Virus record (IMG/VR): IMGVR_UViG_3300027733_000032
From: a virus
Direction: 5' to 3' (one strand)
DNA: 64,000 nucleotides
The notes under the pieces are model-generated. The model searched no databases. It worked only from the letters and a program-made list of their open reading frames with translations, and had not been told where the DNA came from. Made by a program: the position numbers and the translations under genes. Shown piece by piece: positions 356 through 37,506 of this stretch; position 1 is the stretch's first letter, and every line of letters begins with the position of its first letter.

Positions 356-742
356 ACCTTAGTATCGGTAACAGTATTACGCTAGTTGTCAGATAGTTTA
401 TCCACAGGCTGAGAAGTAGACCCTACATTTACACGAAGGCACAAACATATCAAAATGATATAGATGTGACGCTTATAAGGTATAAGGGGTAAGAGTCCCG
501 ATAAATCTACCCTCAACAAATGACGGTGGTGGAAAGCAACTTGCTGATAGGAGATTCGCCCTCCCCTTCGTGCTCGCAATGGAAAAGCGCATACATCTAG
601 AAGCGAAACGACTAGATGCTGAAAGGGAGGGAGGATGGAGCCATTTGAAAGGGCAAACCGTGGCATCTCCCACCATCCTTACGAAGAAGGCGAAACATTT
701 CTTCCTCAATGGAAAGAACGGGGCTCACCAGCATAGAGACAA

Positions 743-958
743 TCACACAGAGAGAGGGCGACTCGCAAGAGAACCAAGGAACTCATTGCCATCCATCTCC
801 ATCAACGCCCAGTAAGCATCTTTGTAAGAAGGGAACACTGATTCAAAGACAACTTCACCCGTGGCTTTATTCTCCAGCGTCCCCAGAACCTCAGAGCCCC
901 GCACAGGAGCGATACGAATCAGATAGACAAGTCCATTGAGGAGCGGTTGATGTTTCAT
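743..958 (-). CDS. hypothetical protein
   Basis: ORF track; same strand as neighbours. Confidence 0.55.
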   Translation of the reverse strand: MKHQPLLNGLVYLIRIAPVRGSEVLGTLENKATGEVVFESVFPSYKDAYWALMEMDGNEFLGSLASRPLSV

Positions 959-1040
959 GTCCGCACCCTACCCACAAAGCCGTTGAGAAGCAAGTACCGA
1001 ATCTCCGGGGCTGACTCGCTCCCCTATCCAGCCCGAACCG

Positions 1041-1247
1041 TCACACTGCCCCTTCGTACTCACGGGAGTGGAGTGTCTTGCCCGCATAGCGGAGGTCGTA
1101 GGCGAACGAGATGAGCCACGAACCGATGTCATCAAAGGGGTACTCACGAGTGAACTCAAAGGCTCCACAGGCTTTACCGTCGGTCACGACAGCCGTGACA
1201 GAGATGATGTTGGTTTCTAGATTGACTGAGTAGGTGAGGTTGTTCAT
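1041..1247 (-). CDS. hypothetical protein
   Basis: Leaderless ATG after class A promoter. Confidence 0.75.
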   Translation of the reverse strand: MNNLTYSVNLETNIISVTAVVTDGKACGAFEFTREYPFDDIGSWLISFAYDLRYAGKTLHSREYEGAV

Positions 1248-1352
1248 ACTTAGGTATCGGAACAGCCGTTACCTTAGTTGGGCGAATGTTTATCCACAGG
1301 TTGTGAATAAAGTATGAGACAACTACCGTAATACTCCTACCGATATATAGAC

Positions 1353-1547
1353 ATGAGCCACTCCACCTACACCCCCTCCCCCCTGTGCGATGCCTGTAGT
1401 CTCCACGAGCCAACCATGGACTGGTACGACCATGACGAGTTCTTTTGGAACCTGTGCGACGAGTGCTTCACCCGTGACGCTCTCATGGGGGGCGAATGCA
1501 CCTCAGCCTGCGACGGGGACTACGCCTGTGCCCACAACTCCCACTAG
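1353..1547 (+). CDS. Cys/His-rich putative Zn-binding protein
   Basis: Leaderless ATG after divergent class A promoter; CDAC, CDEC and further Cys/His. Confidence 0.75.
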   Translation: MSHSTYTPSPLCDACSLHEPTMDWYDHDEFFWNLCDECFTRDALMGGECTSACDGDYACAHNSH

Positions 1548-1770
1548 TGGGCGACCACTCTGAGTGAGAAAACCACCGAGAGTGAGAGTCCCGCATCCCA
1601 CTAACACGCTTAGATAAATCTATCTGAGTGATATTGGGGGTCGTAGGGGGCTAAAAGAGCGACAAAACTCCGAAATATTTGAAAATGCCGAGAATTCGCA
1701 AGTATTTCGTCCCCTATCAGGTCTTTTGCTGCGAACGCAGAGCGTGATTCTTCACCACTCTCCGTGAGGT

Positions 1771-2031
1771 CTAAAGGTGTATAGCACCCATTTCCTCAGG
1801 TGTGCTTTCCGACGGGGCTCGGCTTACCTTGATTTCCCATAGGGATAGCCAGCCATTCCATCCCTTCCCATTAACCCCTTTCAAGAGGATTTGGTCAGCA
1901 CGGTTCTTGTTCGGCACATAGACGAAGCGAGGTCCATGTTCTTTCACTCGGTTGCGGGTTCTCTTAGATGCGGTAGCCCCGTTTATTGAGACGAGGACTT
2001 CGGTTGGTTCGGTGATGTCGCTCAGGCTCAC
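1771..2031 (-). CDS. hypothetical protein
   Basis: Overlap-coupled ORF in minus-strand operon. Confidence 0.6.
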   Translation of the reverse strand: MSLSDITEPTEVLVSINGATASKRTRNRVKEHGPRFVYVPNKNRADQILLKGVNGKGWNGWLSLWEIKVSRAPSESTPEEMGAIHL

Positions 2032-2267
2032 TAGTTCACTTCTCCTACTCTGATACTTTCGTTATCCCTTGTCATACCCTTCATCAGCATCATGTACTTG
2101 CTTGACCACGATAACGGGACTACCCGTGAGTGTTGCTTGTCGTCATAGCCCGTCCATGTAATACGGAACTTGATTTGCTCTTCGTCTTGTATGTCGTTCT
2201 CCATAGTGATGTCTTTCTGTCTCTTGTAGGTATTAGAGAGTTTGCCAACACTGGAGTTGATATCCAT
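2031..2267 (-). CDS. hypothetical protein
   Basis: ORF track; operon context; start may be downstream. Confidence 0.6.
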   Translation of the reverse strand: MDINSSVGKLSNTYKRQKDITMENDIQDEEQIKFRITWTGYDDKQHSRVVPLSWSSKYMMLMKGMTRDNESIRVGEVN

Positions 2268-35034: not shown

Positions 35035-35059
35035 GGTAGTCCCTGTACTGGAGTTTGAT

Positions 35060-35440
35060 TCATTGAGGTTGTTTAGTTGCCGGTTTGACAATTTGGTGAA
35101 TCCTTTGTCTGGAGAGGTTATAACGGTCGGCGATTTGTGTGAGCGATTGGCCGTCTTCGCTGAGATTCTTGATTTCCGCGTTTCTGGAGGTATTAGGTTT
35201 GGGACCTGGCCGCAGAGGGCCCCAGGACCATCCCGGAATACTGTTTAAAATATTAATGCGGTCTTCGCCCAATTTGTTGTTTTTGTAACGTTGTCGAATA
35301 TATCCGACCCACGTGCCGAGTTGCACCGACTTGCCGTCGACATGTTCTTCGTGATGTGCAGGAACCGTGGCGGAACCTTCGCGACTGATGTATTGTTGGA
35401 GGGCGGCCTGGTAGATATTGAACCGGGTGGTGTTGTTCAT
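35060..35440 (-). CDS. helicase-associated (HA) domain plus sigma-region-4-like HTH protein
   Basis: EG.ATVP..H......LG.WV...RQ.Y....L...RI..L..I.GW.W; G.SL.QIA.RYNLSRQRIHQI. Confidence 0.8.
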   Translation of the reverse strand: MNNTTRFNIYQAALQQYISREGSATVPAHHEEHVDGKSVQLGTWVGYIRQRYKNNKLGEDRINILNSIPGWSWGPLRPGPKPNTSRNAEIKNLSEDGQSLTQIADRYNLSRQRIHQIVKPATKQPQ

Positions 35441-35520
35441 AAGGGAAACACTAGTAGTTAAAGGGTTCTCGTAGTGGATATCACGTGCAACAATCGACGG
35501 TGGTGGAAAGGGACTAAATC

Positions 35521-35967
35521 ATGTTCGATGATGATGATAATGACGCGTTTGAGGACATAGCCAGGTTTGCTGAGTTCACCGCGAAGATGAGCGGCGATGA
35601 ACGTAAGACCTTGTCCGAGTTGTTGAGTTCCCTGGCTGGAGAACTAGTCGAGCAGATGTCGCCGCCGAAGGATTTGCTGTTCGTAGGGTCTGATGGCATC
35701 CGCCTAGTGAAGTGTCTCCACTACCCTCGTGAGGTACTGGGTGAAGATGGCCCCGTTATTTTGCCCTCGGCTTCAGAATTTGTGATTCTTGGTGCGCTTT
35801 CAGATGAATTTATCCAAAGAGATGCTGATGAGATTGCGGGGCTTTTTGATGACCTTGAAGAACGCGACGATGCTTGGCACCACCTGATGACCGAGTACGC
35901 TTTGACCATCTCGGAGAAATTCGACGACAATCCACCGGAAGACTATTCGAACTTTTTTAAGGAGTAA
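35521..35967 (+). CDS. acidic hypothetical protein
   Basis: ORF track; SD AAAGGG. Confidence 0.7.
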   Translation: MFDDDDNDAFEDIARFAEFTAKMSGDERKTLSELLSSLAGELVEQMSPPKDLLFVGSDGIRLVKCLHYPREVLGEDGPVILPSASEFVILGALSDEFIQRDADEIAGLFDDLEERDDAWHHLMTEYALTISEKFDDNPPEDYSNFFKE

Positions 35968-35970
35968 CAC

Positions 35971-36543
35971 GTGCACACATCCTGGAATGCAGCCGCTGAG
36001 GTGGCCGTTAAAGAAATCTTCGCAGCGGAGGTGCAGCCCTGCAGTGTCGAAGCGCTTAGGAGCCATCTGGATGGCCTTATCGAGAAGTATTTACCGACCG
36101 GCGGGGACGTGGCCGCGGGCGGCAGCCAGAGAATGCGTCAATCCTGGGTGAAACTGGGTCAACTGGCCCGGTCCTTAGGAGCCACGAGTGATTATTTGAA
36201 CTTTTCCCCGGTATTCGGCGAAGACCACGGTCGTGTTCTCGACATCGTTGTGCGCAAACAGCGCGATTACGGCCACGAGAATATTGCACGCTTTGGCCGC
36301 ATGGGACTTTTGGTCCGGGTGCACGACAAGATTGCACGTCTGGAGAATCTTCTGGGTGCCGGTCATCTACCGAATCATGAATCCATTGAGGATAACGTTC
36401 TCGATGTGATTGGTTATTCAATCGTCGCCGCGATGTGGGAGGAAGGTTCCTTCCTTCTCGCGTTGCAACCTTCGACGGTGGCGGAAAGCGAACCAGATTC
36501 GGGTCTAAATGCCGGAATGTTAGGTTTTTTGCGACTTGCTTAA
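35971..36543 (+). CDS. DUF1599 / nucleotide-modification-associated domain 1 protein
   Basis: RKQRDYG..NI..FG..G..VR.HDK.ARL.NL...ES..D...D..GY motif. Confidence 0.85.
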   Translation: MHTSWNAAAEVAVKEIFAAEVQPCSVEALRSHLDGLIEKYLPTGGDVAAGGSQRMRQSWVKLGQLARSLGATSDYLNFSPVFGEDHGRVLDIVVRKQRDYGHENIARFGRMGLLVRVHDKIARLENLLGAGHLPNHESIEDNVLDVIGYSIVAAMWEEGSFLLALQPSTVAESEPDSGLNAGMLGFLRLA

Positions 36544-37092
36544 CATCTTCGCGATGCTTTAGTGCCGGATTGGCCTGGTAAAATACTAAAGGTAGGGAGC
36601 CTGGAGTCGACACCACCTGCTGATAGTCAACCCCAGGCATCAACCCGGGCGCCGAGAGAAGGAAAGGGGAAACCTCTCTCGACTAAACGAAACTTAGTAC
36701 CCCTAATGTGCCCTCTGTTGTTAAATATTTATTTTAATTTTATGTGCGCTGAGCAGGGCCTTTTTTGAAAATTTTTCTTTTACTTGCTTTCGCGACTTGA
36801 CGTGGTGCTCTACAGTCAGTACCTTTCCGAGTCACAACTTGAAGGGCGCCCGCGCTTTGAGGAAACTTTAGGCCAACCGCCGAAAGTTCTCTTTGTGGTG
36901 CGCAAAAACATAGCGATTCAAAAAAAAGGTTCCCCCGGACCCCCTCCAAAGGAGGGGGGCATCATTACTCTTTTCTTCAATGCAATAATTTCATTGAGAA
37001 ATGAATATACCTTTCTAGGGAATCTCTATTGAAGAGAACTTTGAACCTTTGCAAAAGTTGTACATTTTTTTATCTATCGAAAGGGGTTTCGA

Positions 37093-37506
37093 ATGGTCTA
37101 TATACTGACTCTTGATATGGAAGAGATACCACACGAACCAAAGAAGCGCGGCGGACAGTCTGGTCCCAAGAAACAGAAGCAGGGTCAGATTCGCAAGGGA
37201 TTGACGGTGGCGGAAAGCGACGTTGACCAGGTCTATCAGTACTGGTGTTCGGTCATGCGGCCTGGGCGCAAGCGAGTTCCTTCTCTGGACCACAAGCGAG
37301 AATTGGTTGTACGGGCGGCGATTGCTGATTACGGCCTCGAAGACTGCATGAGAGCCATCGACGGCTGTGCGGCATCTGACTGGCACATGGGCCGCAATCC
37401 AGGGAACAAACGCTACGACGACTTAGAGTTAATCTTCCGCAACCAGAAGCAAGTCGATATGTTTTTGGCGCGAGTCGAAAATAAAAGGAAAACTGGTGAT
37501 TTCTGA
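37093..37506 (+). CDS. phage replication-initiator-like protein (conserved C-terminal domain)
   Basis: AIDGCA.SDWHMG.N....YDDLELIFRN motif; precedes a helicase-loader-like gene. Confidence 0.65.
   Translation: MVYILTLDMEEIPHEPKKRGGQSGPKKQKQGQIRKGLTVAESDVDQVYQYWCSVMRPGRKRVPSLDHKRELVVRAAIADYGLEDCMRAIDGCAASDWHMGRNPGNKRYDDLELIFRNQKQVDMFLARVENKRKTGDF

What the first reader, a model, noticed from the sequence alone, without database searches (positions are those of the whole stretch)
522..37217. Strand-polar 15-mer GACGGTGGYGGAAAG with ~4 kb spacing
Seen: 12 copies, all on the + strand regardless of gene direction, two inside CDSs (36474, 37203). Gaps are 4067, 3732, 4550, 4022 and 3315 bp across the first 20 kb, then four copies within 2.4 kb right after the DnaA/LexA hub. 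Most follow CAAC by 4-5 nt; at 8293, 12845 and 20181 the extended form AGCCCCG-N9-11-ACGCAAC-N4-5-motif occurs. Known: polar motifs include Chi (GCTGGTGG, 6/8 match to the first 8 nt), KOPS and mycobacteriophage stoperators. Inference: a directional signal for a translocase, recombinase or repressor.
Basis: partly seen in the sequence, partly recalled or inferred. Interest (0 to 1): 0.72.

Follow-up and report, generated by a model that had tools for sequence, protein, structure and literature searches.

The report
One-strand control word in lake phage
A 15-18 base DNA word sits on one strand only across the early and replication genes of this uncultured lake phage and its relatives, whichever way the genes run; it most likely controls transcription in one direction, but what reads it is unknown.

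Summary
There are 9 exact copies of GACGGTGGYGGAAAG, 3 degenerate ones (16893, 20208, 25131), and none on the minus strand; shuffles expect 0.

The word is family-wide. 167 non-redundant sites in related IMG/VR phages give tYGACGGTGGYGGAARRS. In six genomes every copy lies on one strand.

It is confined to 16-37 kb (early genes plus the start of the replication module) of 130-160 kb genomes, so it is not Chi- or KOPS-like.

Orientation stays constant while gene orientation does not. Homologous early genes lie on the word's strand in three lineages and on the opposite strand in this window and one other lineage.

About one site in five sits in a fixed register with a co-directional sigma-70-type promoter. 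Either the word supplies the -35 (TTGACG) or it ends 2-8 nt before one (P = 3e-8). Opposite-strand promoters show no peak. Sites avoid long ORFs and hug stop and start codons.

Best reading (0.45): an asymmetric protein-binding control site for rightward transcription, stoperator/operator-like. Rivals are a self-contained promoter, a replication signal and an RNA seed.

Two candidate HTH proteins failed co-occurrence tests. This scan has already noted this word in an overlapping window, and strand-polar words in other phage genomes.

The parts
522..536 (+). word copy 1 (exact, Y=T), leftward early arm
   Evidence: ortholog kept in relative L066
4589..4603 (+). word copy 2 (exact), preceded by hairpin 4553-4567 and a T-rich linker
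8321..8335 (+). word copy 3 (exact); lies 2 nt from the stop codon of minus-strand ORF 8338-8544; hairpin 8283-8300 upstream
   Evidence: ortholog in L015
12871..12885 (+). word copy 4 (exact); with the two preceding T it supplies the -35 (TTGACG) of a sigma-70-like promoter 12869-12897 (17-nt spacer, TAAAGT), 8 nt before the ATG of plus-strand gene 12906-13196
   Evidence: the ORF hits phrog_4655 at 2e-13
16893..16907 (+). word copy 5 (1 mismatch, CACGG); forms the last five codons of minus-strand ORF 16890-17162
20208..20222 (+). word copy 6, degenerate (4 mismatches) but with conserved ACGCAAC upstream; 1 nt from the stop of minus-strand gene 20224-20643
   Evidence: (D9)
22121..22135 (+). 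word copy 7 (exact); 1 nt from the stop codon of minus-strand gene 22137-22355; homology to L029 and L063 begins at the word
25131..25145 (+). word copy 8 (2 mismatches, ...GGATAC) at the divergence point, between the rightward class B leader (25087-25118) and the rightward class A promoter (25164-25189)
34783..34797 (+). word copy 9 (exact), after the GGATAGATTTATCC palindrome. The orthologous site in relatives is a consensus promoter: TTGACG/TTGCGA, 17-18 nt spacer, TGCTAnnnT
35496..35510 (+). word copy 10 (exact), 10 nt before the ATG of gene 35521-35967, in the divergent gap next to the HA+HTH gene
   Evidence: in L126 and L129 the first six bases (TACGGT) form the -10 of a TTGACA-17/18 promoter
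36474..36488 (+). word copy 11 (exact), inside the C-terminal tail of gene 35971-36543 (frame S-T-V-A-E-S)
   Evidence: L033 reads the same frame
37203..37217 (+). word copy 12 (exact), inside gene 37093-37506 (frame L-T-V-A-E-S)
33600..34700 (.). non-coding repeat region between the spaced copies and the dense cluster: (TAGG)n, iteron-like repeats, about 12 DnaA boxes, 4 LexA-type boxes (GAAC-N4-GTTC) at about 34563-34640
35060..35440 (-). 126-aa HA-domain + HTH protein flanked by copies 9 and 10; tested as reader and not supported
37093..37506 (+). replication-organiser/helicase-loader-like protein; co-occurs with the word in all five lineages

Best explanation
The word (family consensus tYGACGGTGGYGGAARRS) is an asymmetric recognition site for one sequence-specific DNA-binding factor, phage- or host-encoded. 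That factor controls transcription running in the word's own 5'->3' direction (rightward in this window). The site would work like the operator/stoperator sites of cluster A mycobacteriophages. At operon heads it lies on or just upstream of the -35 of sigma-70-type promoters, where it would control initiation. In the replication module it stands between, or at the start of, nearly every short gene. In this window's leftward early arm it stands at every operon junction, where it would start or stop only rightward (antisense) RNA polymerase. Shown: sequence conservation, strand lock, regional confinement, avoidance of ORF interiors, and register with co-directional promoters. Inferred: that a protein binds it, that the effect is on transcription, and the sign of that effect.
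For: (1) Information content is high. Fifteen near-invariant positions plus flanks (Y at -1, S at +15) come from 167 non-redundant sites, with no fixed partner element on either side.
(2) The strand lock holds in six genomes: W 12/12, G001 9 forward, G002 14/14, G003 8 of 9, G004 14 forward, G009 12/12. The three stray 2-mismatch hits on the other strand (one each in G001, G003 and G004) match the reversed-pattern control rate.
(3) Sites are non-coding boundary elements. Only about 8 of 156 lie inside long same-strand ORFs, and no reading frame is preferred. Same-strand stop codons lie 6-20 nt upstream in 25 sites against 4.3 expected. Opposite-strand stop codons lie 0-5 nt downstream in 11 sites against 2.1 expected.
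(4) The link to promoters is orientation-specific. TTGnnn-N16-19-TAnnnT occurs 69 times on the word's strand and 14 times on the other. There are two sharp registers: the -35 is the word's own TTGACG (16-19 sites), or the -35 starts 2-8 nt after the word (14 sites against 2.0 expected, P = 3e-8).
(5) In G001 and G003 each spaced copy heads a co-oriented operon of 3-5 genes with TTGGAA/TTGGTA-N18-TAnnnT.
(6) In the replication module of G004 a copy precedes almost every short gene.
(7) The published parallel is a monomeric two-domain repressor that binds asymmetric 13-mers both at promoters and at intergenic stoperators, and whose effect depends on orientation (PMC9283540).
Against: No reader was found. 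The HA+HTH protein next to the cluster has an invariant recognition helix even in relatives that lack the word. The 3xHTH cargo module is absent from complete word-bearing genomes. In this window and in G009 the copies in the leftward arm have no rightward genes to control, yet they stay intact, so a purely local gene-regulatory role is insufficient there. Only about 18% of sites touch a recognisable sigma-70-type promoter. The gap to the -35 varies by 2-8 nt, which is loose for an activator. There is no expression data.
Confidence: 0.45

Rival explanations
1. The word is itself a compact, single-block promoter for a 'middle' class, with its start site inside or just after GGAARR, read by host RNA polymerase carrying an unrecognised phage sigma or adaptor. 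In this window's leftward arm these promoters would fire antisense to the early operons and help shut them off.
For: It is a single block of about 17 nt, like phage-specific promoters. A copy stands before almost every replication gene, with start codons 1-21 nt downstream, and GGAAAGG can serve as the ribosome-binding site. In W and G009 most spaced copies are preceded by a GC hairpin ending 20-34 nt upstream plus a pyrimidine-rich linker, which is a terminator-then-promoter layout. In the leftward arm the word abuts the stop codon of the converging operon, where an antisense promoter would give full coverage. In L126 and L129 the variant TACGGT is the -10 of a TTGACA-17/18 promoter, which places the start inside the word.
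Against: No T7-like RNA polymerase or sigma-70 region 2 was found in complete relatives. Heads in G001 and G003 already have their own sigma-70-type promoter just downstream of the word. Start codons are not enriched after the word compared with random positions. Terminators are not enriched upstream family-wide. The rightward early arm at 25-33 kb has no opposing copies.
Confidence: 0.2
2. The word is a DNA-level polar replication signal. It could be a dispersed binding or loading site for the phage replication organiser, or a polar fork barrier, that imposes one direction of replication through the early region.
For: Orientation is fixed relative to the genome axis, not to genes, in five lineages. 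The dense cluster adjoins the DnaA-box/iteron-like region and the replication genes. A replication-organiser-like gene (PHROG replication initiation; weak fold match to SPP1 G39P at Z 5.1 and to DnaD domains at Z 4.0-4.4) is present in all five word-bearing lineages. It is absent from four relatives that lack the word.
Against: Copies on both sides of the origin-like region point the same way. The word is absent from more than 100 kb of each genome. No phage primase or prim-pol was found. The co-occurrence is confounded by phylogeny, and the fold match is within noise. The base-precise association with co-directional promoters and codon boundaries is not expected of a replication signal.
Confidence: 0.15
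3. The word acts at the RNA level. Rightward mRNAs carry the word at their ribosome-binding regions, and leftward RNAs carry its complement, as 3' UTRs of early operons here. The two pair as a 15-nt seed to time translation or decay.
For: The same DNA strand gives target or regulator depending on transcription direction, which would explain the strand lock and the freezing of all 15 positions. Variable positions are transitions (Y, R, R) that G-U pairs tolerate. Spaced copies mostly carry C at position 9 while cluster copies often carry T. In the leftward arm the complement follows the stop codon and precedes a hairpin.
Against: Leftward RNAs show no consistent structure (z-scores mostly near 0). 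In G001 and G003 the spaced copies are sense and lie upstream of the -35, so they may not be transcribed at all. A transition bias is also the mutational default.
Confidence: 0.08
4. The word is a Chi-, KOPS- or SRS-like signal for a host nuclease or translocase, or has no present function and is a relic or recombination junction.
For: It is strand-polar and G-rich, with a 6/8 match to E. coli Chi. One mosaic breakpoint falls exactly at a word (W versus L029 and L063).
Against: It is confined to a quarter or less of the genome. Its 15-18 informative positions are far more than such signals use. It is intact in the flipped arms of two lineages that share only about 50% protein identity. Four orthologous sites are perfectly kept at 79-90% flank identity.
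Confidence: 0.05

Closest known systems
Operators and stoperators of cluster A mycobacteriophages (L5 gp71; TipsytheTRex repressor), PMC9283540
   Same: Both are asymmetric sites of 13-15 bp, present in a dozen or more copies per genome. Both are found at a promoter (overlapping the -35) and in short intergenic gaps or at start and stop codons. Both are one orientation per transcription direction in most lineages, and in both orientation matters.
   Different: Here the sites are confined to the early/replication region. They keep one absolute orientation even where the gene arm is flipped (W, G009). No gp71-like repressor and no integrase were found. The sequences are unrelated apart from a shared GGTGG.
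Phage middle-promoter activator sites at or near the -35 (T4 MotA box; Mu Mor and C sites)
   Same: A phage-specific word sits at or just upstream of the -35 of host-type promoters inside the prereplicative region and is co-directional with them. A Mor-like HTH protein is encoded in the cluster.
   Different: Only about 18% of sites have a recognisable -10 in register. The spacing to the -35 varies by 2-8 nt. The Mor-like protein also occurs, with an identical recognition helix, in phages that lack the word.
Single-block promoters of phage RNA polymerases (T7 group)
   Same: An invariant block of about 17-20 nt, one orientation, often a copy before each gene or gene group, and often a mosaic boundary.
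   Different: No such polymerase gene was detected. Distances to start codons are as short as 1 nt. Copies face away from the genes in one arm.
Tus-Ter and RTP-Ter polar fork barriers, and plasmid iterons
   Same: Asymmetric sites bound by a monomer or initiator, repeated in one orientation near a replication region.
   Different: These copies are dispersed over 20-35 kb rather than tandem. They have the same orientation on both sides of the origin-like region. They are tightly tied to gene boundaries and promoters.

Membership tests
Chi (RecBCD/AddAB/AdnAB hotspot) | Short word (5-8 nt) over-represented and oriented throughout the genome | tested here: not met
   There are 15-18 informative positions. 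Copies lie only at 97-113.5 kb of the 160-kb G001 and 82-102 kb of the 133-kb G004, and none at 37.2-64 kb of the window.
KOPS/SRS (FtsK/SpoIIIE guide words) | Genome-wide skewed 8-mers whose orientation switches at a terminus | tested here: not met
   The word is regionally confined and shows no strand switch in six genomes.
Cluster A stoperator/operator system | Asymmetric 13-bp-class site, many copies, in intergenic gaps or at start/stop codons, with one copy as operator at a promoter | tested here: met
Cluster A stoperator/operator system | Orientation follows the local direction of transcription | tested here: inconclusive
   Met in G001, G003 and G004, where the spaced copies are co-oriented with the operons. 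Not met in the leftward arms of W and G009.
Cluster A stoperator/operator system | Cognate monomeric two-domain repressor encoded by the phage | tested here: inconclusive
   None was identified. Two HTH candidates failed co-occurrence tests. Most small genes are unannotated.
T7-group phage-polymerase promoter | Single-subunit RNA polymerase gene in the genome | tested here: inconclusive
   PF00940 was not found in G001-G004, but the control genomes gave no positive either.
PafBC-dependent promoter (-26 element), PMC8635444 | tGTCgg with a strictly conserved GTC, then N10, then TAnnnT | tested here: not met
   The word has GAC (A in 164 of 167 sites). The position where the -10 would start is S, and there is no TAnnnT there.
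ops / RfaH loading site | Non-template-strand word in operon leaders, read by a NusG paralogue | tested here: inconclusive
   The 9/12 identity to the ops word is recalled from memory, so it is only a lead. No NusG-NGN domain is encoded in the relatives. The host is unknown. At G001 and G003 heads the word lies upstream of the -35, so it is not in the leader.
Primase (prim-pol) template recognition words | A phage-encoded primase and a genome-wide one-strand word | tested here: not met
   No Prim-Pol or DnaG zinc-ribbon domain was found in complete relatives. The word is not genome-wide.
Origin iterons | Tandem direct repeats at the origin, bound by the initiator | tested here: not met
   Copies are 200-4500 bp apart. 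Only co-occurrence with an organiser-like gene was seen.

The most novel reading that the evidence does not exclude
The word marks a fixed scaffold of one-directional units that is older than, and independent of, the genes inside them. A machine that tracks the DNA in one direction through the early region would read it. That machine could be RNA polymerase driving antisense shut-off of early operons, or a replisome or DNA-entry motor. This would explain why gene arms can flip while the words cannot.
Probability: 0.2. Interest if true: 0.75.

Novelty: new variant of a known kind. Interest (0 to 1): 0.55.

Why it matters
The word is among the most conserved DNA features found here in a family of large, uncultured freshwater phages, which probably infect actinobacteria and which also borrow host DnaA and LexA sites. 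Three properties together give a clean, testable case of an orientation-locked control signal: a fixed strand, confinement to the early and replication genes, and persistence where the gene arm is inverted. Finding its reader would show how these phages time early and replication genes. It would also show whether stoperator-like, direction-dependent control is widespread outside mycobacteriophages.

Tried and rejected
- Cultured relatives: megablast and protein searches of the phage collection found none.
- Window genome: no whole genome is held for the window.
- Expression data: no RNA holder is listed for the window, and all runs are DNA contigs.
- HA+HTH protein as reader: rejected. Its recognition helix LSRQRIHQIVK is invariant in G005-G008, which carry neither the word nor any analogous repeated word.
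- 3xHTH module at the end of the 1661-aa cargo protein as reader: rejected, because it is absent from G001 and G004.
- A leftward class-A-like promoter firing into the word in G001 and G003: considered and dropped. The conserved block there is the -35 and spacer of a rightward TTGG(A/T)A-N18-TAnnnT promoter.
- 'Three promoter registers' as an argument for an operator: withdrawn. The TAnnnT peaks at -6 and 0 are fully explained by the position frequencies. Only the two -35 registers stand.
- Start-codon and terminator enrichment family-wide: none.
- Conserved structure of leftward RNAs: none.
- Word as a coded peptide: no frame is preferred.
- PafBC motif, sigma-54, ECF-type promoters and anti-Shine-Dalgarno pairing of the whole word: considered and set aside on spacing or sequence.
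- Fold search of the organiser-like protein: only weak matches, Z 5.1 or less.
- Self-trained hexamer gene caller: too weak to use.

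
Full report
OBSERVATION. GACGGTGGYGGAAAG occurs nine times exactly, all on the plus strand, against zero in shuffled sequence. Allowing up to two mismatches adds 16893 and 25131, again only on plus. Repeat finding recovers a twelfth, degenerate copy at 20208-20222 that keeps the upstream ACGCAAC. So is the extended form: GC hairpin, T-rich linker, ACGCAAC, N4-5, word.

SETTING. The window is phage DNA. It has PHROG hits to head morphogenesis, endolysin and metallophosphoesterase, and one tRNA-Arg. 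It has no close cultured relative. Earlier notes of this scan place it in a roughly 150-kb uncultured freshwater phage, probably of actinobacteria.

The region 1-25 kb is transcribed leftward. About 25 near-identical promoters of one class read CAACTA-N14-CCGATA-N7-ATG. They are leaderless, and most of them (about 20) have a DnaA box a fixed few bases upstream of the -35. A second conserved element contains AAGGAG and is better read as a leader. Both follow gene direction. The 15-mer does not.

Substitution patterns against relatives confirm minus-strand genes to the right of 22121. In the leftward arm the word abuts the stop codon of the converging gene at 8338, 20224 and 22137, and it forms the last five codons at 16893. 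The stretch 33.6-34.7 kb is non-coding, with (TAGG)n, iteron-like repeats, about twelve DnaA boxes and four LexA-type boxes.

FAMILY-WIDE CONSERVATION. An exact-pattern scan of IMG/VR returned at least 116 stretches. Many are relatives of the window, and several contigs hold multiple same-strand copies. Whole related records show the same picture:
- G001 (160 kb, complete): nine copies, all on one strand, only at 97.0-113.5 kb.
- G004 (133 kb): fourteen copies at 82.0-102.4 kb.
- G002: fourteen copies.
- G003: eight copies.
- G009: twelve copies over 20.6-43.2 kb.
All are single-stranded. G001, G003 and G004 each also have one 2-mismatch hit on the other strand, which is at the rate of the reversed-pattern control.

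The layout is always the same: copies spaced 2-4.5 kb apart, followed by a dense cluster of 4-8 copies at the start of the replication module. From 167 non-redundant sites the consensus is tYGACGGTGGYGGAARRS. There is A/T at -7 and -6, and no fixed partner element on either side. Relatives L122-L135 mostly use the GGAAGA ending.

The signal is not genome-wide, so Chi-, KOPS- or primase-word readings do not fit. No primase, prim-pol, T7-type polymerase, sigma region 2, NusG paralogue or integrase was detected in the relatives.

POSITION RELATIVE TO GENES. Only about 8 of 156 sites lie inside long same-strand ORFs, and no reading frame is favoured. Same-strand stop codons pile up 6-20 nt upstream (25 observed against 4.3 expected). 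Opposite-strand stop codons pile up 0-5 nt downstream (11 against 2.1). Start codons and intrinsic terminators are not enriched family-wide. The two window copies at 36474 and 37203 are exceptions that lie in frame T-V-A-E-S.

ORIENTATION VERSUS GENES: THE KEY RESULT. In G001 and G003, and probably G004, each spaced copy heads a co-oriented operon of 3-5 genes. The window's minus-strand early genes have homologues on the word's strand in G001, G003 and G004. Examples are 21495-21845, 24072-24590, 18183-18341, 14938-15186 and 8541-8873. From 27 kb onward everything is collinear and on the same strand.

G009 shares only about 50% protein identity with the window but has the window's arrangement. 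Its left arm of genes lies opposite to six intact copies spaced 2.2-3.3 kb apart. So the arm's gene orientation differs between lineages while the word's orientation never does. Four orthologous sites are also perfectly kept between the window and relatives whose flanks are 79-90% identical. The polarity is therefore a property of the genome axis, not of local genes, and it is under selection.

LINK TO TRANSCRIPTION. Sigma-70-type promoters (TTGnnn-N16-19-TAnnnT) near the 167 sites number 69 on the word's strand and 14 on the other. They fall in two sharp registers:
- the -35 is the word's own TTGACG (16-19 sites, mostly one conserved locus downstream of the HA+HTH gene, plus window copy 12871);
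- the -35 starts 2-8 nt after the word (14 sites against 2.0 expected, P = 3e-8).
The opposite strand shows no peak.

G001 heads read TTGGAA-N18-TAnnnT and G003 heads read TTGGTA-N18-TAnnnT. At 12871 the window has TTGACG, a 17-nt spacer, TAAAGT, then 8 nt to the ATG of a real plus-strand gene (phrog_4655, 2e-13). LexA-type boxes are enriched 85-103 nt upstream of the word at such heads (18 sites against 4 downstream). In the replication module the word stands 1-21 nt before many start codons, where its GGAAAGG end could double as a ribosome-binding site.

WHO READS IT. The 126-aa HA-domain + HTH protein between copies 9 and 10 looked promising, with Mor-like and sigma region 4-like hits. However, its recognition helix is invariant in relatives G005-G008, which lack the word and any analogous repeat. 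The 3xHTH module at the end of the 1661-aa cargo protein is absent from G001 and G004.

A replication-organiser-like protein (37093-37506) is present in all five word-bearing lineages and absent from the four lacking it. Its model is confident over residues 41-134 (mean pLDDT 85). The best fold matches are weak: SPP1 G39P helicase loader at Z 5.1, and DnaD domains at Z 4.0-4.4. That is co-occurrence only. A host factor remains possible, since the phage already uses DnaA and LexA sites. The PafBC motif tGTCgg-N10-tAnnnT (PMC8635444) is not matched at its invariant GTC or in its spacing.

INTERPRETATION. The combination best fits a site for one sequence-specific DNA-binding factor acting on rightward transcription. 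The elements of that combination are very high information content, asymmetry, boundary positions, a copy at or beside the -35 of co-directional promoters, and many stand-alone intergenic copies. The closest known system is the operator/stoperator system of cluster A mycobacteriophages. There a monomeric two-domain repressor binds asymmetric 13-mers at promoters and in intergenic gaps, and works only in one orientation (PMC9283540).

The differences are regional confinement, an absolute rather than transcription-relative orientation in two lineages, and no identified repressor. In the leftward arm of this window the sites can only act on rightward, antisense polymerase. Whether they start it or stop it cannot be decided without RNA data. 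The 'start' reading is the promoter rival, supported by the hairpin-linker-word layout shared by W and G009. No RNA run was listed for this DNA. A replication-level role (0.15) and an RNA seed role (0.08) remain open.

PRIOR NOTES. This scan had already flagged the same word in an overlapping window (e1-5857652). It has also flagged strand-polar words in phages of at least 92 other genomes. So the phenomenon recurs, while its reader is still unknown here.

Noticed in passing
window 356-25022 (minus strand) and 1320, 5383, 11038, 25164, 30775 (plus strand): About 30 near-identical promoters read CAACTA-N14-CCGATA-N7-ATG. They are sigma-28-like in geometry and drive leaderless genes, and about 20 of them have a DnaA box a fixed few bases upstream of the -35. 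Six lack the ATG (4448, 10200, 12735, 20100, 21996, 24979), and five of those have a 15-mer 83-127 nt to their right.
   Followed up: partly
It is homologous to the operon leader ...CTACTACTAAGGAGTTCAC..ATG of relatives G001 and G003, so it is at least partly a conserved 5' leader or ribosome-binding region rather than a promoter.
   Followed up: partly
window 33600-34700: A 1.1-kb non-coding block holds (TAGG)n, several iteron-like repeat families, about 12 DnaA boxes in both orientations and four LexA-type boxes. It looks like a plasmid- or lambda-style origin and control region.
   Followed up: no
L119-L121 (G001, G003), 85-103 nt upstream of the spaced 15-mers: Operon heads in relatives carry CGGGGCT followed by 1-3 LexA-type boxes (CGAAC-N4-GTTCG, containing TATGTT) at a nearly fixed distance from the word. 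This suggests SOS-linked control of phage early operons.
   Followed up: partly
window 1-25000 versus G001, G003, G004, G009: The early gene arm is heavily shuffled between lineages, and its gene orientation is flipped in two of five lineages. Divergent promoter pairs that share palindromic DnaA boxes (1255/1320, 5317/5383, 10973/11038) could mediate such inversions.
   Followed up: partly
window 22121 versus L029:728 and L063:860: Homology between the window and these relatives begins exactly at the first base of the word, and the left flanks are unrelated. The word can therefore be a mosaic breakpoint.
   Followed up: no
relatives L096, L044, L065, L034, L039, L121-L124, L130, L131, L134 (orthologous to window ~34783): A conserved consensus promoter with an extended -10 (TTGACG, 17-nt spacer, TGCTAnnnT) lies downstream of the HA+HTH gene. 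A conserved ...TAGTGGGCCC segment follows, with no obvious start codon, so this may be a non-coding RNA. The window copy lacks the -10.
   Followed up: no
window 39748-40380 (minus): The last roughly 190 residues of the 1661-aa cargo protein form three tandem resolvase- or LuxR-type HTH repeats that begin right after a G-M-S-S joint. This module is not found in G001, G004, G005, G008 or G009.
   Followed up: partly
window 35060-35440 (minus): A small HA-domain + HTH protein has a fully invariant helix LSRQRIHQIVK across homologues of 50-56% identity, including phages that lack the 15-mer. Its own DNA target is unknown.
   Followed up: partly
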